A DNA stretch of 24,441 nt from Desulfurellales bacterium (GCA_037440565.1 JBBITY010000002.1:1663-26103); one strand, 5' to 3'. Shown: positions 5,412-21,361, numbered from the stretch's first letter. The notes: a model not told the origin generated them from the letters alone. Made by a program: numbers and translations.

Positions 5412-7163
5412 TCAGTGGAGCGCCGGCTGCGCGGTCGGGTCGGCGAACTGCAGGTCGTGCAGCTTGCGGTACTCGGCGTTGAGCGCGAGTAGCTCCTCGT
5501 GTGTGCCCTCTTCGACGATCTGGCCGCGTGTGAGCACGACGATGCGGTCGGCGGAGCGGATGGTCGACAGGCGATGCGCGATGACCAGCGTCGTGCGCCC
5601 CTGCATCAGAGTCTCGAGCGCCTGCTGAACCAGGCGTTCGGACTCGTTGTCGAGCGCCGAGGTTGCCTCGTCCAACACCAGGATCGGCGCGTTCTTGAGC
5701 AGGGCGCGGGCGATGGCGATCCGCTGGCGCTGTCCGCCGGACAAGCGCAGGCCCAGCTCGCCGATCACGGTGTCATACCCCTGCGGCAACTCCATGATGA
5801 AATCGTGTGCGTGCGCCGCCTTCGCCGCCGCGACGATCGCATCCATGTCCTGGTCGATCGATCCGTACGCAATGTTGTTCTTCACCGTGTCGTTGAAGAG
5901 AAACGTGTGCTGGGTGACCAGGGCGATGTGTGCGCGCAAACTCGCCAGCGTGAAGTCGCGAATATCAACGCCGTCGATGCGAACGGAACCGGCCGTCACG
6001 TCGTAGAAACGCAGAACCAGATCGGCCAACGTGCTCTTGCCCCCCCCGCTCGGACCCACCAGCGCCACCACCTCGCCGCAGCGAATGGTGAGGTGAACGT
6101 CCTGCAGCACCATCTCGCTGCCGTACGTGAAACTGACCCCGACGAGCTCGAGGCCGTGGCGCACGCCGTTCAGCGCCCGGGCGTGCGGCCGGTCCTGCAC
6201 CTCTGGCACCGCATCCAGCACCTCGAAGACGCGGTCCGCTGCCGCCAACCCTTGCTGGAGCGTCGTATTGGCCTTTCCGAGCGACTTGAACGGGTCGTAC
6301 AAGAGAAAGAGCGCCGTCAGGAAGGCGAGAAACGCGCCCTGGGTGCGCCCACCGGTGATGACGCTGTGGCCTCCGTACCAAACGACTCCCGCAATGCCGA
6401 ATGCGGCCAGAATCTCCAGCATCGGTGTCGTAAACGCGCGAATGCGCACCACCTTCATGGCGAGGCGGAAGAGCGCCTCGCTTTCCTCGGCGAAGCGCCG
6501 CTTCTCGTAGTTTTCCATCCCAAAAGCCTTCACGACACGGTTGCCCTGCACCGTTTCTTGCAGCAGCGCGGTCAGTTTCCCCAGCGATGTCTGACGCTTG
6601 CGCGCGAAGCGCCGCAGCTTCTTCGACATCCGGATAATCGGCAGGATCGACGCCGGAAAGACCACGAAGGCGATGAGGGACAACAACCAGTCGTGCCAGA
6701 AGGCCACAACCACCAGGACCACGAGCGAGACGCTATCCCGGAGAACCGACGCCACGGTATCGGTCAACGCATTGCCGATGACGAAGACGTCGTTCGAGAC
6801 GCGCGACAGAATTGCTCCGGTCGATTGCCGGTTGAAGAACGACAGGGAGAGATGCTGGATGTGCTCGTTGAGTTGATTGCGCAGGTCGGTGATGATGCGG
6901 TTGCCGACGTAGTCGCTGAGATAGGTGCTGCCGAACTGCAGCACGCCGCGAATGACGAATGTGCCGAGAATCACGCCCGGCAGCAGGCCGAGCATGACGG
7001 CGTTCTTGTTGGTGAAGATGTCATCGAAAATCGCGCGGACGAGGAACGGCATGACGCCGTTGGTCGCGCTGAACAGCACCATGCAAATCATGGCGCCGAC
7101 AAAGTACGGCCAGAAGTACGGTCGCAGGTACGCGAGGACGCGCCGCACGTGTCGGGTGCTCAT
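5412..7163 (-). CDS. msbA: Lipid A-core flippase, ABC exporter
   Basis: N-terminal TM domain, Walker A GPSGGGKST, signature LSGGQRQR, Walker B LDEATSALD, IAHRLST. ATGA overlap with lpxB. Confidence 0.95.
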   Translation of the reverse strand: MSTRHVRRVLAYLRPYFWPYFVGAMICMVLFSATNGVMPFLVRAIFDDIFTNKNAVMLGLLPGVILGTFVIRGVLQFGSTYLSDYVGNRIITDLRNQLNEHIQHLSLSFFNRQSTGAILSRVSNDVFVIGNALTDTVASVLRDSVSLVVLVVVAFWHDWLLSLIAFVVFPASILPIIRMSKKLRRFARKRQTSLGKLTALLQETVQGNRVVKAFGMENYEKRRFAEESEALFRLAMKVVRIRAFTTPMLEILAAFGIAGVVWYGGHSVITGGRTQGAFLAFLTALFLLYDPFKSLGKANTTLQQGLAAADRVFEVLDAVPEVQDRPHARALNGVRHGLELVGVSFTYGSEMVLQDVHLTIRCGEVVALVGPSGGGKSTLADLVLRFYDVTAGSVRIDGVDIRDFTLASLRAHIALVTQHTFLFNDTVKNNIAYGSIDQDMDAIVAAAKAAHAHDFIMELPQGYDTVIGELGLRLSGGQRQRIAIARALLKNAPILVLDEATSALDNESERLVQQALETLMQGRTTLVIAHRLSTIRSADRIVVLTRGQIVEEGTHEELLALNAEYRKLHDLQFADPTAQPALH

Positions 7164-16050: not shown

Positions 16051-17565
16051 TCACCGCCGCTCGGGGCGCATGTGCGGAAAGAGGATGACGTCGCGGATGG
16101 ACGGCGAATCGGTCAGCAACATGACCAGTCGGTCCACGCCGACGCCTTCGCCGGCAGCCGGCGGCATTCCGTGCTCGAGCGCGCGCAAAAAGTCCTCGTC
16201 CATCGCGTGCGCTTCTTCGTCGCCGGCGGCGCGCTGTCGCAACTGGGCTTCCAGACGCGCTCGTTGATCATCCGGATCGTTGAGTTCCGAGAAGGCATTG
16301 GCCATTTCGCGCCCGGCGATGTAGAGTTCGAATCGGTCGACGAAGTGCGGCCGCTGCTCGTTGCGGCGCGCGAGCGGTGACACGGCCACCGGGTAGTGGT
16401 AGACGAACGTCGGCTGGATCAGCTCCGGTCCGGCCAGTGCTTCGAAGAGGTCCGTCAACAGGTACGCAGCGGCGCCCTCACCGTAGTGGCCTTCGTAATC
16501 CACCTTCGCGCCGAACCCAGCCCGCTGGGCGGCCGCCCTCAGAACACCGAGATCGAGAGCCAGTACGCCCTCGAGTGGTACCTGCGCCCGTTCCGCCACG
16601 TACTCGGGAAGGCACAGGCGGCGCCACGGCGGGGTGAGATCGATCGGCATGCCACCGTAGGTGAGCTGACGGCTCCCGATCACCGCATCCGCCACCCCGA
16701 CGAACAGCTCCTCGGTCAACCGCATGAGATCCTCGTAGGTGGCGTAGGCCTGATAGAATTCAAGCATGGTGAACTCGGGATTGTGCAGCGTCGACACCCC
16801 CTCGTTGCGGAACACGCGGTTGAGTTCGAACACGCGCTCGAAGCCGCCGACCAGCAGGCGTTTCAAGTACAGCTCCGGGGCGATGCGCAGGTACAGATCG
16901 ATGTCGAGCGCGTTGTGGTGGGTAACGAACGGGCGCGCCGCGGCGCCCCCGGCGACCGGCTGCATCATGGGCGTTTCCGCCTCGATGAAGTCGCGCTCGA
17001 CGAAAAACCGCCGCAGATACTGAACGATCTCGGCGCGGCGACGAAACGTCGCGCGCACGGCCTCGTTGCCGATCAGATCGAGGTAGCGCTGTCGATAGCG
17101 CGCCTCGACGTCGGTCAGGCCGTGCCACTTCTCCGGCAGCGGGCGCAAGGCCTTGGCGAGCAGCCGCACCTGCTGAGCCTCCACCGTGAGCTCGTCGGTC
17201 TTCGTGCGGAACGGGCGCCCGACGATGCCGGCGAAGTCGCCGACGTCCATCTGCTTGAACACCGCGAACGCCTGTTCCCCGACGCTGTCGCGCTTGACGT
17301 AGGCTTGCAGGCGCCCGGCGCGATCCTGGAGGTGCAAGAACGAAGCGCGGCCGAAGTCGCGCCGCGCGATCACGCGCCCTGCCACCGCCACCACCGCGCG
17401 GTTCTCCGCGAGGCGCTCGGGCGTAAGGCCGCCGAACTGGACCCCCACCTCCGCCGTCGTGTGCGTCGGGGTGAAGTCGTTCGGGAAGGCATTCACTCCC
17501 TTGGCGCGCACCGCAGCTAACTTGCGCCGCCGCGCCGCGAGCAGATCGGTTACTTCGGCGTCCAC
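16051..17565 (-). CDS. lysS: Lysyl-tRNA synthetase, class II
   Basis: N-terminal OB-fold, RYRQRYLDL, LYLRIAPELYLKRL, FRNEG, HNPEFTMLEFY, GMPP..G.GVGVDRL. GTG start. Confidence 0.98.
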   Translation of the reverse strand: MDAEVTDLLAARRRKLAAVRAKGVNAFPNDFTPTHTTAEVGVQFGGLTPERLAENRAVVAVAGRVIARRDFGRASFLHLQDRAGRLQAYVKRDSVGEQAFAVFKQMDVGDFAGIVGRPFRTKTDELTVEAQQVRLLAKALRPLPEKWHGLTDVEARYRQRYLDLIGNEAVRATFRRRAEIVQYLRRFFVERDFIEAETPMMQPVAGGAAARPFVTHHNALDIDLYLRIAPELYLKRLLVGGFERVFELNRVFRNEGVSTLHNPEFTMLEFYQAYATYEDLMRLTEELFVGVADAVIGSRQLTYGGMPIDLTPPWRRLCLPEYVAERAQVPLEGVLALDLGVLRAAAQRAGFGAKVDYEGHYGEGAAAYLLTDLFEALAGPELIQPTFVYHYPVAVSPLARRNEQRPHFVDRFELYIAGREMANAFSELNDPDDQRARLEAQLRQRAAGDEEAHAMDEDFLRALEHGMPPAAGEGVGVDRLVMLLTDSPSIRDVILFPHMRPERR

Positions 17566-17721: not shown

Positions 17722-17750
17722 TTGACAGCCAGAGGCCTTTCCCCTATTGT
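17722..17750 (+). promoter_or_regulatory. sigma70-type promoter for the ttuB-ttuA-trmI operon
   Basis: TTGACA (17722-17727), exactly 17 nt, TATTGT (17745-17750), then a GC-rich discriminator. Confidence 0.75.
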
Positions 17751-17761
17751 CCCGCCGCTCC

Positions 17762-17959
17762 ATGCGCATTACGGTGCTACCGCAACACAAGCAGGTGGAG
17801 CTGAGCGGCCGCCGCCGTGCGAGCGAGGTGTTGACCCAGCTCGGTTTCCTGCCCGGCACGGCCATGGTGATCCGCGGCGACCAACTGGTGCTGGAGCACG
17901 AGATGCTGGACGCAGACGACGTCGTCGAAATCCGTTCGGTGATCTCCGGGGGGAGCTGA
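17762..17959 (+). CDS. ttuB: Ubiquitin-like ThiS/MoaD-family sulfur carrier (TtuB-like), 65 aa
   Basis: MRITV...VLTQLG..PGTAMVIRGDQLV......L...DVVEIRSVISGGS; beta-grasp pattern, directly upstream of ttuA. Confidence 0.88.
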   Translation: MRITVLPQHKQVELSGRRRASEVLTQLGFLPGTAMVIRGDQLVLEHEMLDADDVVEIRSVISGGS

Positions 17960-17962
17960 GCG

Positions 17963-18970
17963 ATGGCCGCCCTGCCGCCGGAACACGCCGGCGCGCGGCA
18001 GCGCGCGGGCGAACCGAGCTCGGGCCGCCGAAGGTCGGCGCGATGGACGTTCTGCCGGCGCTGCCACGCCAAAGCCGAGGTCACGCTCCGGCATCACAAC
18101 GCCGCGTTCTGCCGCGCGTGCTTCACCTTCTACCTGCAACGGCAGGTGGAGCGCACGATCGAGAAGGAACGGATGTTCCGCAAGGACGAGCCGGTCCTCG
18201 TGGCCGTGTCCGGTGGCAAAGACAGCTTGGCGCTTTGGGATATCCTCGTCGAGCTGGGCTTCCTGACCACCGGGCTCCACTTGTCCCTCGGCATCGGCGC
18301 GTATTCGGACCAATCGACGCTGAAAGCCACTCAGTTCGCCAACGCGCGCGGGCTGACGCTGATTACGGTCCCGCTGGCGGAGGAAGGATTGGCCGTGCCA
18401 GCGGTGGCGGCATTCACCAACCGCCCCGCGTGTTCGGCCTGCGGAGCACTCAAACGTCACTACTTCGACCGGCTCGCCATTGACCGGGGTTTCCCCGTCC
18501 TGGCCACCGGCCACAATCTCGACGACGAAGCGGCGCGTCTATTGGGCAACGTGCTCCATTGGCAGATGGATCACTTGGCCCGGCAACGCCCGGTCCTGGA
18601 ACCCACCCACGAGCGCTTCGTGCGCAAGGTAAAGCCCCTGTATCGCTGCAGCGAGTACGAGACCGCCGTGTACGCGTTTTTCCGCGGTATCGACTACATG
18701 ATCGAGGAGTGTCCCAACAGTGTGGGTGCGACCCAGCTTGTATACAAGGACATGCTGAACCGGCTCGAGGCCGTCAGCCCGGGCAGCAAGTCGACCTTCG
18801 TCCGGGAGTTTCTCCGCCGGGGTCGACTGCTGGCGGCAGCGTCCCCTGTTGCGCCACCCCAGGCGTGCGAGCGCTGCGGGATGCCGTCGTACGGGGGGCT
18901 GTGCGCCTTCTGCCGGCTGGTGCGCGAAGTGGAGGTCAAACGAGAACGGCGCGCCGCCGCGCGGCCCTAG
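17963..18970 (+). CDS. ttuA: TtuA/NcsA-family [4Fe-4S] tRNA 2-thiouridine synthase (TIGR00269-like)
   Basis: N-terminal CxxC..CxxC Zn finger, PP-loop VAVSGGKDSLALW, LHLSLGIGAYS, ACSACG, ATGHNLDDEA, VKPL, EECPN, C-terminal CERC...LCAFC. It tracks Thermus TtuA motif by motif as I recall it. GGAG SD 7 nt before the ATG. Confidence 0.9.
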   Translation: MAALPPEHAGARQRAGEPSSGRRRSARWTFCRRCHAKAEVTLRHHNAAFCRACFTFYLQRQVERTIEKERMFRKDEPVLVAVSGGKDSLALWDILVELGFLTTGLHLSLGIGAYSDQSTLKATQFANARGLTLITVPLAEEGLAVPAVAAFTNRPACSACGALKRHYFDRLAIDRGFPVLATGHNLDDEAARLLGNVLHWQMDHLARQRPVLEPTHERFVRKVKPLYRCSEYETAVYAFFRGIDYMIEECPNSVGATQLVYKDMLNRLEAVSPGSKSTFVREFLRRGRLLAAASPVAPPQACERCGMPSYGGLCAFCRLVREVEVKRERRAAARP

Positions 18971-19022
18971 GGTGGTCCCGACCCGGCCGCTTCGCTGCGC
19001 TCGGCACACGACGCGAACCGCC

Positions 19023-19862
19023 ATGACGGCTTCATCCCGCGAACGGCTGCAGGCAGGGGAGAGCGTCCTCTTTATCGATCGCAAGGAACGGGAGTACCTG
19101 CGCGTCCTGCAGCCCGGGACGCGGCTGCGCGTGCGCGACGGCACCATGCAAGCCGACCACCTCATCGGCTTGGCCGAAGGCAGCACCGTTTACAACTCGG
19201 CGATGGAGCGGTTTCTCGTGCTGCGGCCCACCCTCGCAAGTCTGATTCCAAACCTCCCGCGGCGCGCCCAGGTCATCTATCCCAAGGACATCGGCCCGAT
19301 CTTGCTCTGGGGCGACATCTACCCTGGCGCGCGCGTTCTGGAAGTAGGCGCGGGACCAGGCGCGTTGACGATGGCCCTACTGCGGGCGGTGGGGCCGGCG
19401 GGGCAATTGATCTCGTATGAGGCGCGCGAAGACTTCTGCCGGATGGCGGAGGCGAACGTGCGGCAATTCTACGGTGAGGCGCCGAACTGGATCCTGAGGC
19501 GGGCGGACGCCACTCACGGGATCGACGAGCACGATCTCGATCGCCTGTTGATGGATATCCCGGAACCGTGGACGCTGTTGCCCGCGGCCGGCACCGCGCT
19601 GCGCCCGGGCGGGGTGCTGGTTGCCTACGTCCCAACCGCGCTGCAGGTCAAGCAGTTCGTCGATCAGGCTCGGAGTGGCGGCTTTGGCGCCGTCCAGGTC
19701 ATGGAAACGTTGATTCGCTTCTGGCACGTGAAGGGGCTCAGTGTGCGCCCGGAGCACCGCATGATCGGCCACACCGGCTTCATCATCAGTTGCCGCCGAC
19801 TAGCCGACAGCGGGGTGGCAACGGCCGACGCGGCGACGTTGACTCCGCGCGGCGGCGTGTAG
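19023..19862 (+). CDS. trmI: tRNA (adenine-58-N1)-methyltransferase
   Basis: HLIG..EGS.V, FLVLRP.L, PRRAQVIYPKD, VLEVGAGPGALT, SYEAREDF, MDIPEPW, YVPT..QV, VRPEHRMIGHTGFI. Confidence 0.93.
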   Translation: MTASSRERLQAGESVLFIDRKEREYLRVLQPGTRLRVRDGTMQADHLIGLAEGSTVYNSAMERFLVLRPTLASLIPNLPRRAQVIYPKDIGPILLWGDIYPGARVLEVGAGPGALTMALLRAVGPAGQLISYEAREDFCRMAEANVRQFYGEAPNWILRRADATHGIDEHDLDRLLMDIPEPWTLLPAAGTALRPGGVLVAYVPTALQVKQFVDQARSGGFGAVQVMETLIRFWHVKGLSVRPEHRMIGHTGFIISCRRLADSGVATADAATLTPRGGV

Positions 19863-19894
19863 TAGCAGAGGGCCGTTCGCGTGCGACCAGCACC

Positions 19895-20632
19895 ATGACG
19901 AAGGATGCGATCCGGCACAAGGTGTGGACCCGTGTAACCGTGGCCGGGGTGGCCCGCTTCCCTAGTCCATATGGACGCGTGCCGAATTTCACCGGTGCGG
20001 AACGCGCGGCGGGCCTGCTGTGTCAACTGACGATCTGGAAGCGGGCCAAAGTGATCAAGGTGGAGGCTGGCGCGCCCCAGCTCGCCGTTCGGCGCGCGGC
20101 GCTGCAGCAGGGGAAAATCCTTTACCTGCCGATACCGGGCCTGCGCGCGGAGCGCTGCTTCGTCGAGGTGGATCCTGCACGTCTGGGTCCGAAGGCCTGG
20201 CGCGCGGCCACGCTGCGCGGCGCGCTGCAGTACGGACGCCCGGTCGCGCCGCACGAGCTGCGTCCGGTCGATCTGGTGATGGTCGGGTCTGTCGCGGTGT
20301 CGCGCCAGGGGGCACGAGTCGGCAAGGGTAATGGCGCCAGCGATCTCGAGTACGCGTTGCTGCGGCAGGCGGGCAAGGTGCGCGAGTACACGCCGATCAT
20401 CACCACCGTCCACCCGCTGCAAGTCGTCGAGGACCGCATCCCGATGCGTGCGCACGACATCCCAGTCGATTTTCTCGTGACGCCGGATCACGTGGTCGCC
20501 GCTCCGAGTCTGTACCCGCGCCCGCGCGGCATTCTGTGGGACCTGCTACCCGACGAACGCATCCGCTCGATCCCCATTCTGCGCAAAGGGCGACGCGACA
20601 GCCGGGGAACGAGCACACCGGGTCACTTTTGA
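19895..20632 (+). CDS. 5-formyl-THF cyclo-ligase paralog, archaeal/MTHFSD type
   Basis: IRHKVW, ARFP.P.GRVPNF.GA..AA, PQ..VR..AL..GK, VDLV.VGSVAV...G.R.GKG.G.SDLE, TTVHPLQV, HD.PVD...TP. Confidence 0.85.
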   Translation: MTKDAIRHKVWTRVTVAGVARFPSPYGRVPNFTGAERAAGLLCQLTIWKRAKVIKVEAGAPQLAVRRAALQQGKILYLPIPGLRAERCFVEVDPARLGPKAWRAATLRGALQYGRPVAPHELRPVDLVMVGSVAVSRQGARVGKGNGASDLEYALLRQAGKVREYTPIITTVHPLQVVEDRIPMRAHDIPVDFLVTPDHVVAAPSLYPRPRGILWDLLPDERIRSIPILRKGRRDSRGTSTPGHF

Positions 20633-20681: not shown

Positions 20682-21179
20682 TCACCGCTCGCGGCGCCTC
20701 CTGCCTGACGCCCGTGCACGAGGCCGGGCGAGTTGGATCGCCACCTCGACCGCCTCGGCAGGAGTACGAGCCACGCGAACGCCTGCGACGTGCTCCCATG
20801 CGTTCAGGACGACCACAGGTCGGCCGAGTTTCAGCGCGAGGGCGATCTCTGAGGCCGTGCCGTGCTCACCCGAAAGCGCGATCACCGCGTCACCCGATGC
20901 CGCAACGATGACGTTGCGCGCATGTCCCATCCCGGTTGCCAGGGCAACCGCAATGGCGGGATGTGCCGCCGACAAATCGTAAGTCGGGAGCACACCGATC
21001 GTCAGCCCGCCGGCGCGCTTCGCACCGGAAGCGGCGGCGCCCATCACCCCGCCGAGTCCACCACACACGAGCACGGCACCGCGGCGGGCGAGCGCCGCGC
21101 CGACTGCCGCTGCGGCCCGCGCGATGGGCCGCGAACACTTCCCCCCTCCGATGACCGCTATCTGCAGGCGTCGGGTCAT
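20682..21179 (-). CDS. TIGR00725-family LOG/DprA-like Rossmann-fold protein
   Basis: IAVIGGG, LVCGGLGGVM.A...GA...GG.TIGVLP, TGMGHARN, GEHGTASEIALALKLGRPVV. Confidence 0.88.
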   Translation of the reverse strand: MTRRLQIAVIGGGKCSRPIARAAAAVGAALARRGAVLVCGGLGGVMGAAASGAKRAGGLTIGVLPTYDLSAAHPAIAVALATGMGHARNVIVAASGDAVIALSGEHGTASEIALALKLGRPVVVLNAWEHVAGVRVARTPAEAVEVAIQLARPRARASGRRRRER

Positions 21180-21361
21180 GGCTCTGCACAGTATGCTACG
21201 CGTCGGCCGTCGGCCAGAGGACGCCTCGCCCCATTTTCTCACCTGTTTGCTGCTGCGGCCGCCCTCGCGACGGAACCCGGCGAGAAATGCGGGCTGGCGG
21301 GCACGTGTCGCGCCCCAGTTGCCAGCGGCCGCCGGGTTGGATAGAGGGATCGGGACGACAA

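What the first reader, a model, noticed from the sequence alone, without database searches (positions are those of the whole stretch)
17722..20632. Four-gene tRNA T-loop modification operon: TtuB - TtuA - TrmI - MTHFSD-like orphan
Seen: one promoter, four co-directional genes, gaps of 3, 52 and 32 nt. Established: in Thermus thermophilus, TtuA/TtuB make 2-thio-ribothymidine at tRNA position 54, TrmI makes m1A58, and m1A58 promotes U54 thiolation; together they heat-stabilise tRNA. Inference: this looks like a packaged T-loop-locking module in a GC-rich diderm that shows no other sign of thermophily in this window, plus a fourth gene with no known tRNA role. It would imply m5s2U54/m1A58 used for something other than extreme heat, or an unrecognised thermotolerant host. 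The E1-like activator (TtuC/MoeB), the cysteine desulfurase and the U54 methylase are not in the window.
Basis: partly seen in the sequence, partly recalled or inferred. Interest (0 to 1): 0.85.

Follow-up and report, generated by a model that had tools for sequence, protein, structure and literature searches.

The report
tRNA elbow thiolation operon plus orphan
A soil-type Binatia bacterium carries the Thermus-type genes for sulfur on tRNA U54 and methyl on A58 as one block, with a fourth gene related to the uncharacterised human protein MTHFSD; that link is a new lead to the family's function.

Summary
Four co-directional genes lie at 17762-20632 with gaps of 3, 52 and 32 nt, behind one promoter-like site.

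- **Gene identities.** Genes 1-3 are clear relatives of Thermus TtuB, TtuA and TrmI. TtuA keeps every catalytic and zinc-binding residue and scores far above NcsA and TtcA.
- **Fourth gene.** It is a divergent 5-formyltetrahydrofolate cyclo-ligase paralog of the MTHFSD/COG0212 type. The genome also has a canonical 5-FCL elsewhere.
- **Missing partners.** E1 enzymes, cysteine desulfurases, TrmFO and a JAMM protease are present elsewhere in this 77%-complete MAG.
- **Host.** It is a Candidatus Binatia MAG, and calibrated proteome indices show no thermophile signal.
- **Core cluster is not unique.** ttuB-ttuA occurs in about 65 of 80 surveyed loci, and trmI follows in 41 of 80, across Binatia, Nitrospirota and Actinomycetota. 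This scan has already noted the core in at least 49 other genomes.
- **What is specific here.** In 40 of 42 relatives that carry the paralog, it sits about 1 kb downstream of ttuA. It was never found in a relative lacking ttuA. Outside Binatia the family is not linked to ttuA.
- **Carrier tail.** TtuB ends Gly-Gly-Ser, so it probably needs trimming.

No modification chemistry or co-transcription was tested. Interest is moderate: a new variant of a known system.

The parts
17722..17750 (+). Sigma-70-like promoter candidate (TTGACA, 17 nt, TATTGT). It would leave a very short or absent leader before the ttuB ATG at 17762.
   Evidence: 10 of 12 matches; 1 site found against 0.3 expected in shuffles. 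This is a consensus match only, and function is not shown.
17762..17959 (+). ttuB: a 65-aa ubiquitin-fold sulfur carrier ending ...SVISGG-S, with one residue after the reactive Gly-Gly.
   Evidence: The best PDB match is Thermus thermophilus TtuB (5ztb_E, E 4e-10), aligned to its C-terminal SAISGG. There is a weak ThiS NCBIfam hit. An orthologue sits upstream of ttuA in about 65 of 80 loci, most with 1-12 residues after GG.
17963..18970 (+). ttuA: a PP-loop, [4Fe-4S]-type tRNA 2-thiouridine(54) synthetase of 335 aa, with a 27-aa N-terminal extension shared with its closest homologue.
   Evidence: PDB: Thermus TtuA 276 bits (E 4e-81), Pyrococcus TtuA 239, NcsA 89. NCBIfam: TtuA 252, NcsA 97, TtcA 56. 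Conserved residues: C31/C34/C50/C53; SGGKDS at 83-88; C157/C160/C250, equivalent to Thermus C130/C133/C222; K164, equivalent to K137; C302/C305/C314/C317.
19023..19862 (+). trmI: tRNA (adenine58-N1)-methyltransferase, 279 aa.
   Evidence: Pfam GCD14 (E 1e-23) plus TrmI-like_N. PDB: M. tuberculosis Rv2118c 221 bits, Thermus TrmI 133 bits. It lies immediately downstream of ttuA in 41 of 80 loci.
19895..20632 (+). MTHFSD/COG0212-type paralog of 5-formyltetrahydrofolate cyclo-ligase, 245 aa. Its nucleotide-loop motif is GKGNGASDLEY in place of GxGGG(F/Y)YD. Its substrate is unknown.
   Evidence: Pfam PF01812 scores 81 bits. NCBIfam MTHFS scores 29, below the cut-off of 85. The AF2 model (pLDDT 70) best matches 5-FCL structures. 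A canonical 5-FCL lies elsewhere in the genome. The family includes RRM-fused members. It lies about 1 kb downstream of ttuA in 40 of 42 relatives that have it.

Best explanation
This is a chromosomal operon for modifying the tRNA T-loop (elbow) in a non-thermophilic Candidatus Binatia bacterium.

Shown by homology:
- TrmI methylates N1 of A58 using SAM.
- TtuA is a PP-loop ATPase with a [4Fe-4S] cluster held by C157, C160 and C250. It adenylates C2 of (m5)U54 and replaces the oxygen with sulfur delivered by the thiocarboxylated C-terminus of TtuB.

Inferred:
- m5U54 is supplied by TrmFO, encoded elsewhere.
- TtuB is made as a Gly-Gly-Ser precursor that must lose its Ser. The single JAMM protease on contig C523 is a candidate for this.
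- TtuB is then adenylated by one of the ThiF-type E1s (C225 or C294) and loaded with sulfur from a cysteine desulfurase (C61 or C16).
- As in Thermus, m1A58 made by the co-expressed TrmI favours thiolation.
- The product, m5s2U54 with m1A58, would rigidify the tRNA elbow for a purpose other than growth at extreme heat. Possible purposes are tRNA stability or turnover control under stress.

The fourth gene encodes an ATP-using enzyme of the MTHFSD/COG0212 branch of the 5-FCL fold. It is not a folate cyclo-ligase. My preferred reading (about 0.4) is that it acts in the same pathway, on tRNA or on the carrier. Its reaction is unknown.
For: - Gene identities and conserved catalytic residues.
- Arrangement: one promoter-like site and no internal terminator.
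- ttuB-ttuA adjacency in about 65 of 80 loci and ttuA-trmI adjacency in 41 of 80, across several phyla.
- TtuA is found in 53 of 60 relatives, counting one broken and one partial copy, and forms phylum-wise clades. The Binatota clade has 100/99 support, which indicates long residence rather than recent transfer.
- Partners elsewhere in the genome: ThiF E1s, TrmFO, JAMM, desulfurases.
- MnmA, the usual U34 thiolase, scores over its cut-off in 55 of 61 genomes searched (the 60 relatives plus this MAG), so U34 is already covered.
- 31 of 32 tRNA genes carry the G53-U54-U55-C56-R57-A58 loop.
- No thermophile signal. IVYWREL is 0.411 here against 0.408 for Nitrospira moscoviensis with the same pipeline. 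Relatives with the same cluster come from soil, groundwater and sediment MAGs.
- Fourth gene: it is adjacent in 40 of 42 relatives that have it and absent from all 7 relatives lacking TtuA. Other members of its family carry RNA-related domains: RRM in 5 of 46, and Tpt1/KptA, zf-CCHC and Pol-beta NTase in one each.
Against: - No tRNA chemistry, enzyme assay or transcript data exist for this organism or any Binatia. The target position is inferred from orthology and from trmI adjacency.
- TtuA scores below the NCBIfam equivalog cut-off (252 against 450). That model is Pyrococcus-specific, and only 1 of 14 control genomes passes it.
- MnmA was not found in this MAG itself, which is 77% complete.
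- The Gly-Gly-Ser tail means the carrier cannot work as translated, and the trimming enzyme is only guessed.
- For the fourth gene, linkage is confined to one class.
  - Eleven relatives with TtuA lack it.
  - One Binatia chromosome has it 290 kb from ttuA.
  - Outside Binatia its neighbours are heterogeneous.
  - Block inheritance alone could therefore explain the pattern.
Confidence: 0.72

Rival explanations
1. The fourth gene is a passenger. It would be an MTHFSD/COG0212-type enzyme with its own metabolic role, for example the cryptic thiamin-related role proposed for this family. It would have become fixed behind trmI in an ancestor of the Binatia order and is inherited or lost with the block without acting on tRNA.
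For: - Outside Binatia, 79 of 80 family loci lack ttuA and trmI. Their neighbours are mixed: CutA1-NUDIX in 12, hisI/hisG in 8.
- Eleven relatives with TtuA lack the gene.
- Genome G065 keeps it 290 kb away from ttuA.
- Pribat et al. 2011 (PMID 21538139, cited in PMC5041015 and PMC4120688; abstract recalled from memory) linked the family to thiamin metabolism.
Against: - The position is kept in 40 of 42 relatives, with only a 32-nt gap here, across at least 30 genera.
- It was never seen in a relative without TtuA.
- No thiamin gene or TPP riboswitch is in the window.
- RNA-domain fusions elsewhere in the family point to RNA.
Confidence: 0.35
2. The fourth gene is a working 5-formyl-THF cyclo-ligase. 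It would keep the folate pool available for TrmFO, which makes the m5U54 that TtuA thiolates.
For: It has the 5-FCL fold and matches Pfam PF01812. The N-terminal K-x3-R motif and the G-x-G-x-G..D loop are retained. TrmFO is folate-dependent and present in the genome.
Against: - A canonical 5-FCL with GRGGGFYDR exists elsewhere in the genome.
- The paralog lacks the aromatic pair and is only 29% identical over 75 aa to the canonical copy.
- It scores below the NCBIfam MTHFS cut-off.
- TrmFO is present in 57 of 61 genomes searched, whether or not they have the paralog.
- COG0212 proteins were reported to lack 5-FCL activity (Pribat 2011, from memory).
Confidence: 0.07
3. The thiolase works on wobble U34 of tRNA-Lys/Glu/Gln, like archaeal NcsA. 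The head-to-head lysS gene would hint at this.
For: lysS starts 196 nt upstream on the other strand. MnmA was not found in this MAG.
Against: - lysS adjacency is absent from all 80 other TtuA loci, including the closest Binatia ones.
- MnmA is over its cut-off in 55 of 61 genomes searched, together with TtuA.
- The protein scores three times higher against TtuA than against NcsA.
- trmI, whose product is a TtuA determinant, is the conserved neighbour.
Confidence: 0.04
4. The host is an unrecognised thermophile, and the operon serves ordinary heat stabilisation of tRNA.
For: The uncalibrated Zeldovich index gives about 50 C. CvP is 7.2 and tRNA GC is 63.8%, which are intermediate values.
Against: - The same pipeline gives 47 C for Nitrospira moscoviensis, which grows at about 39 C (from memory), so the index runs about 8 C high.
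- Relatives with the same cluster are soil, groundwater and sediment MAGs.
- Binatia are reported from soils, floodplain sediments and sponges (PMC9455692, PMC11264602, PMC9531527).
Confidence: 0.1

Closest known systems
Thermus thermophilus s2T54 system: TtuA, TtuB, TtuC (E1), TtuD (rhodanese) and IscS/SufS, with TrmI/m1A58 as positive determinant and TrmFO for m5U54
   Same: - TtuA aligns over its full length (276 bits) with both zinc fingers, the PP-loop, the three Fe-S cysteines and K137 conserved.
- TtuB is the best PDB match of gene 1.
- A TrmI homologue is present.
- TrmFO, ThiF-type E1s and desulfurases are present in the genome.
   Different: - The host shows no thermophile signal.
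- The carrier ends GG-Ser instead of GG.
- trmI is fused into the same operon.
- A fourth, MTHFSD-type gene is attached.
- TtuC and TtuD orthology was not established.
Mycobacterium tuberculosis TrmI (Rv2118c), the m1A58 methyltransferase of a mesophile
   Same: It is the best structural-database match of gene 3: 221 bits, E 2e-64, over nearly the full length. It shows that m1A58 is not restricted to thermophiles.
   Different: In the window the gene follows ttuA. Whether Rv2118c has a TtuA partner was not examined here.
5-formyltetrahydrofolate cyclo-ligase (MTHFS/YgfA, EC 6.3.3.2)
   Same: Same fold (Foldseek probability 1.0 to 1ydm, 2jcb, 1sou and 3hy4) and same Pfam family. The glycine-rich loop with its Asp is retained.
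   Different: - 13-27% identity to solved 5-FCLs.
- The aromatic pair of the GxGGG(F/Y)YD motif is replaced: GKGNGASD.
- A C-terminal extension of about 45 aa is present.
- The score is below the NCBIfam cut-off.
- A canonical copy coexists in the genome.
MTHFSD (animals) / COG0212 5-FCL paralog (Pribat et al. 2011, PMID 21538139), function unknown
   Same: It shares the family-wide blocks RIPNF, NPDxPQ, GSVAV..GKGxGxxDLEY, TTVHxxQ and HDxPxD..TP with 225 representative clusters at E <= 1e-30, some of which carry an RRM like MTHFSD.
   Different: No RRM is present here. Here and in Binatia the gene is embedded in a tRNA-modification operon, a context not seen for the family elsewhere. No thiamin gene is nearby.
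Capped sulfur carriers trimmed by JAMM proteases (CysO/Mec+, QbsE/QbsD, HcyS/HcyD; from established knowledge)
   Same: There is a residue after the Gly-Gly. A single Prok-JAB gene is in the genome. A second carrier in the same genome ends GG-Ala next to an E1.
   Different: No JAMM gene lies in or beside the operon. Trimming is inferred, not shown.

Membership tests
TtuA (tRNA-5-methyluridine54 2-sulfurtransferase) | PP-loop ATP-binding motif SGGKDS | tested here: met
   Residues 83-88 are identical to Thermus TtuA in the alignment and invariant in 19 homologues.
TtuA (tRNA-5-methyluridine54 2-sulfurtransferase) | Three cysteines ligating the [4Fe-4S] cluster (Thermus C130, C133, C222) | tested here: met
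   C157, C160 and C250 align to them and are invariant.
TtuA (tRNA-5-methyluridine54 2-sulfurtransferase) | N- and C-terminal CxxC...CxxC zinc fingers | tested here: met
   C31/C34/C50/C53 and C302/C305/C314/C317. Pfam TtuA_LIM_N scores 28.7 bits, above its cut-off of 27.
TtuA (tRNA-5-methyluridine54 2-sulfurtransferase) | Closer to TtuA than to the NcsA/Ncs6 and TtcA branches | tested here: met
   NCBIfam: 252 against 97 and 56 bits. PDB: 276 and 239 against 89 bits. The score is below the Pyrococcus-type equivalog cut-off of 450, which only 1 of 14 control genomes passes.
TtuA (tRNA-5-methyluridine54 2-sulfurtransferase) | Thiolates position 54 of tRNA | not testable with these tools
   Only indirect support: trmI adjacency, MnmA in relatives, and a canonical T-loop in 31 of 32 tRNAs.
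TtuB (ubiquitin-fold sulfur carrier) | Small beta-grasp protein encoded next to ttuA with a C-terminal Gly-Gly | tested here: inconclusive
   The best PDB hit is TtuB, aligned up to its terminal GG, and the position directly upstream of ttuA is conserved. However, the Gly-Gly is followed by Ser, so a free terminal Gly requires processing.
TrmI (tRNA m1A58 methyltransferase) | GCD14-type Rossmann methyltransferase domain with the TrmI-like N-terminal domain | tested here: met
   PF08704 scores 84.6 bits and PF14801 41.5 bits. Rv2118c scores 221 bits, and Thermus and Pyrococcus TrmI 129-135 bits.
5-formyltetrahydrofolate cyclo-ligase (EC 6.3.3.2) | Passes the curated equivalog model and carries the GxGGG(F/Y)YD motif | tested here: not met
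   TIGR02727 scores 29.3 bits against a cut-off of 84.9. The motif reads GKGNGASD. A canonical copy with GRGGGFYD lies on contig C4.
5-formyltetrahydrofolate cyclo-ligase (EC 6.3.3.2) | 5-FCL fold | tested here: met
   Foldseek probability is 1.0 with TM 0.45-0.6 to 1ydm, 2jcb, 1sou and 3hy4. The model is of medium quality, pLDDT 70.
MTHFSD / COG0212 paralog family | Family-specific conserved blocks shared with RRM-bearing (MTHFSD-type) members | tested here: met
   E-values are 1e-36 to 1e-68 to 150 representatives. Alignments share the RIPNF, GSVAV..GKGxGxxDLEY, TTVHxxQ and HDxPxD blocks. RRM_1 is present in 5 of 46 longer members.
MTHFSD / COG0212 paralog family | C-terminal RNA recognition motif (animal MTHFSD architecture) | tested here: not met
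   Only PF01812 was found in the 245-aa protein.

The most novel reading that the evidence does not exclude
The MTHFSD/COG0212-type protein is a fourth, ATP-dependent component of T-loop modification in Binatia. It would act on the tRNA elbow or on the TtuB carrier. That would be the first functional assignment for a family found in all domains of life, including human MTHFSD, and it would mean the family works on RNA rather than on folate or thiamin.
Probability: 0.2. Interest if true: 0.8.

Novelty: new variant of a known kind. Interest (0 to 1): 0.5.

Why it matters
Reviews treat m5s2U54 and the Ttu proteins as a thermophile trait (PMC7912444, PMC6313347, PMC5372739).

A vertically inherited ttuB-ttuA-trmI block occurs in Binatia, Nitrospirota (including the cultured Nitrospira moscoviensis), Rokubacteria and Actinomycetota. 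This suggests that elbow thiolation has a role at moderate temperature. That idea can be tested by LC-MS on a cultured carrier of the block.

The MTHFSD/COG0212 family has no known function. I found no mechanistic paper among the 25 listed of 134 papers that mention MTHFSD. Its stable placement behind trmI across an entire bacterial order, together with RNA-domain fusions elsewhere in the family, gives a concrete and testable hypothesis for it.

Tried and rejected
- The Pribat 2011 paper (PMC6078417) is not held. Its content is cited from memory and from citing papers.
- lysS linkage / U34 hypothesis: rejected, because the adjacency is not conserved and MnmA is present in relatives.
- Folate link through TrmFO: TrmFO is near-universal in the class regardless of the paralog, so there is no correlation.
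- Raw thermophily index of about 50 C: discounted after calibration on N. moscoviensis.
- Rfam and tRNA scans of the window found nothing, including no TPP riboswitch.
- The context of the unlinked paralog in G065 is uninformative: a luciferase-like monooxygenase and a HAD hydrolase.
- A broad family alignment (A4) was too diverse for the search for related loci. A narrower one (A5) worked.
- No outgroup-rooted TtuA/NcsA/TtcA tree was built, because no reference sequences could be fetched. HMM and PDB score ratios were used instead.
Full report
**Observation.** The + strand between 17722 and 20632 holds four ORFs:
- 17762-17959, 65 aa from an ATG. An upstream TTG at 17747 lies inside the -10 hexamer.
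- 17963-18970, 335 aa.
- 19023-19862, 279 aa.
- 19895-20632, 245 aa.

One such site was found where shuffles give 0.3. No + strand terminator-like site lies inside the block. The neighbours are on the other strand: class II lysyl-tRNA synthetase at 16051-17565 and a SLOG-cluster4 protein at 20682-21242. Rfam and tRNA scans of the window found nothing.

**Gene identities.**
- *Gene 2 is a TtuA.*
  - Its best solved relatives are Thermus thermophilus TtuA (276 bits, E 4e-81, residues 30-327) and Pyrococcus horikoshii TtuA (239 bits). The U34 thiolase NcsA scores 89 bits.
  - NCBIfam gives TtuA 252, NcsA 97 and TtcA 56 bits.
  - The alignment to 5gha_A shows both zinc fingers (C31/C34/C50/C53 and C302/C305/C314/C317), the SGGKDS PP-loop, the three Fe-S ligands (C157/C160/C250, equivalent to Thermus C130/C133/C222) and K164, equivalent to K137.
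- *Gene 1 is a TtuB.* It finds Thermus TtuB as its best PDB match (E 4e-10), aligned up to that protein's terminal SAISGG. The window protein reads SVISGG followed by Ser.
- *Gene 3 is a TrmI.* It has the GCD14 and TrmI-like_N domains. It best matches M. tuberculosis Rv2118c (221 bits), then the Thermotoga, Pyrococcus and Thermus TrmI proteins.
- *Gene 4 is a divergent 5-FCL-family protein.*
  - It matches Pfam 5-FTHF_cyc-lig at 81 bits but scores only 29 bits against the NCBIfam MTHFS equivalog, whose cut-off is 85.

**Host.** The window lies in a MAG of 3.75 Mb in 579 contigs, 77% complete, with 66.5% GC. The closest TtuA and gene-4 homologues are labelled Candidatus Binatia.

Raw thermophily proxies are intermediate: IVYWREL 0.411, which the Zeldovich regression converts to about 50 C; CvP 7.2; tRNA GC 63.8%. 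The same pipeline applied to 200 kb of Nitrospira moscoviensis gives 0.408, or 47 C. From memory, that organism is grown near 39 C. A second Binatia chromosome gives 0.400. The index therefore runs high, and there is no thermophile signal. Moderate thermotolerance cannot be excluded. Relatives with the same cluster are soil, groundwater and sediment MAGs. Binatia are reported from soils, floodplain sediments and sponges.

**Rest of the pathway.** The following lie elsewhere in the MAG:
- two full ThiF-type E1 genes, on C225 and C294;
- TrmFO, scoring 327 bits over the half that precedes a contig end;
- one Prok-JAB/JAMM gene on C523;
- six ThiS-family genes;
- strong cysteine desulfurase matches on C61 and C16.

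MnmA was not found in this MAG. It is over its cut-off in 55 of 61 genomes searched, nearly all of which also have TtuA. Its absence here is therefore best put down to incompleteness. Of the 32 predicted tRNAs, 31 carry G53-U54-U55-C56-R57-A58.

**Conservation of the core.** A scan of one genome per GTDB species returned 80 TtuA loci. By tblastn, a TtuB homologue lies directly upstream in about 65 of them, and TrmI lies directly downstream in 41. These span Binatia, Nitrospirota, Actinomycetota/Acidimicrobiia and others. TtuA loci also include Rokubacteria/Methylomirabilota, Dehalococcoidia, Nitrospira moscoviensis and named thermophiles: Hydrogenobacter, Thermaceae, Thermotogaceae, Thermoanaerobacter and Thermaerobacter.

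A maximum-likelihood tree of 79 TtuA sequences gives phylum-wise clades, with Binatota at 100/99 support. The thermophile sequences sit on deep branches. This speaks for long vertical residence in these phyla rather than recent import. The tree is midpoint-rooted only, and two rows were skipped.

Among 60 relatives of the same family, order and class, TtuA is present in 53. This count includes one broken and one partial copy.

Reviews describe m5s2U54 and the Ttu proteins as features of thermophiles (PMC7912444, PMC6313347, PMC5372739). A full-text search for TtuA together with Nitrospira found nothing. This scan, however, has already recorded the ttuB-ttuA-trmI block in at least 49 other genomes, mostly Acidimicrobiia, and reached the same conclusion.

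**The carrier's tail.** Most TtuB orthologues in the 80 loci carry 1-12 residues after the Gly-Gly. Twelve end exactly at GG, including the Thermoanaerobacter and Thermaerobacter loci. In five Actinomycetota loci ttuB is fused in frame to ttuA. In Binatia-type loci the tails are S, AP, C, AA, SR, V, AG, VA or longer.

A free terminal Gly is needed for adenylation and thiocarboxylate formation in all ThiS/MoaD/Urm1-type carriers (established knowledge). Trimming is therefore inferred, with the single JAMM gene as the obvious candidate. A second carrier next to the C225 E1 ends GG-Ala, so capped carriers are not unique to this operon.

**The fourth gene.**
- *Relation to canonical 5-FCL.* The genome has a canonical 5-FCL on contig C4, scoring 138 bits with the GRGGGFYDR motif. 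The window protein is only 29% identical to it, over 75 aa around the glycine loop, and reads GKGNGASDLEY there. An AlphaFold model (pLDDT 70, pTM 0.71) best matches 5-FCL structures at probability 1.0, TM 0.45-0.6 and 13-27% identity.
- *Family.* An exhaustive search of 1.84 billion representatives found 225 clusters at E <= 1e-30 and 1157 at E <= 1e-10. Prokaryotic-size members share blocks with the window protein: RIPNF, NPDxPQ, GSVAV..GKGxGxxDLEY, TTVHxxQ, HDxPxD..TP. Of 46 longer members, five carry an RRM, which is the MTHFSD architecture. One each carries Tpt1/KptA, zf-CCHC and a Pol-beta nucleotidyltransferase domain. The library holds no paper on what MTHFSD does.
- *Linkage inside Binatia.*
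  - Among the 60 relatives, 42 have this paralog. In 40 of them it lies about 1 kb downstream of ttuA on the same strand. The other two have both genes at contig ends.
  - All 7 relatives without TtuA lack it. Eleven relatives with TtuA also lack it.
  - One Binatia chromosome has it 290 kb from ttuA, between unrelated genes.
- *No linkage outside Binatia.*
  - Nitrospira moscoviensis and the Rokubacteria, Actinomycetes and Dehalococcoidia genomes with TtuA have no such paralog.
  - Of 80 soil-metagenome loci of other family members, only one, itself Binatia-like, has ttuB-ttuA-trmI. The rest have mixed neighbours: a CutA1-NUDIX fusion in 12 and hisI/hisG in 8.
  - TrmFO is present regardless of the paralog, so a folate-supply link gets no support.

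**Mechanism.**
- *From homology.* TrmI makes m1A58, and TtuA with TtuB makes the 2-thio group on (m5)U54.
- *Inferred.* TrmFO supplies m5U54. The carrier is trimmed by a JAMM protease, activated by a ThiF-type E1 and loaded from a cysteine desulfurase.
- *Carried over from Thermus.* m1A58 stimulates thiolation.
- *Fourth protein.* It keeps the ATP-loop features of 5-FCL but not the folate-contacting aromatic pair. I read it as an ATP-using enzyme with another substrate. Its probability of acting in this pathway is about 0.4, its probability of being a passenger about 0.35, and its probability of being a true 5-FCL under 0.1.

**Alternative considered.** That adjacency is absent from all 80 other loci. 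MnmA coexists with TtuA in relatives. The hypothesis is not supported.

**Verdict.** The three-gene core is a new member of a known system in a lineage where it was not expected, but the scan has seen it repeatedly. The Binatia-wide attachment of an MTHFSD-type paralog is the new element. It makes this a new variant of a known kind, with moderate interest. Nothing about the actual tRNA modifications or transcripts was tested.

Noticed in passing
L024, L025, L031, L032, L056 (Actinomycetota TtuA loci), around locus positions 5785-7035: ttuB is fused in frame to ttuA, with the Gly-Gly followed by a short linker and then the TtuA zinc finger. The carrier's reactive end is therefore buried inside one polypeptide.
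   Followed up: partly
Own genome, contig C225: 3-815 (+) and 958-1290 (+): A ThiF-type E1 of 270 aa is followed by a ThiS/Ub-Mut7C-like carrier whose ORF ends ...LAGG-A. This is a second capped sulfur carrier in the same genome.
   Followed up: partly
Own genome, contig C294: 1-4140 (- strand): The cluster runs E1, threonine-synthase-like gene, ThiS-family carrier ending exactly in GG, cysteine-synthase-like gene, then a second E1 fragment. It looks like a carrier-dependent cysteine or homocysteine synthesis unit.
   Followed up: no
Relative G010, C1:1415367-1417955: TtuA is split into three adjacent pieces and the gene-4 homologue into two. This is either decay of the cluster or frameshift errors in that assembly.
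   Followed up: no
Relatives G008 (100% complete, 3 contigs) and G017: MnmA was not found although TtuA is present. All other relatives with TtuA have MnmA.
   Followed up: no
L198:2713-3513 (-) and 11 further soil-metagenome loci among L120-L199: A CutA1-NUDIX fusion gene lies divergently just upstream of non-Binatia members of the MTHFSD-type family. It is the commonest neighbour, seen in 12 of 80 loci.
   Followed up: partly
P0241 (representative library): An 1810-aa protein contains seven tandem stretches matching the MTHFSD-type domain.
   Followed up: no
window 20682-21242 (-): A SLOG cluster4 (LOG-like) gene lies convergent with the operon's end. A homologue is within 4 kb of ttuA in only one other locus (L006).
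   Followed up: partly
window 17750-17762: Only 11 nt separate the end of the -10-like hexamer from the ttuB ATG (17751-17761), so the mRNA would be leaderless or nearly so.
   Followed up: no
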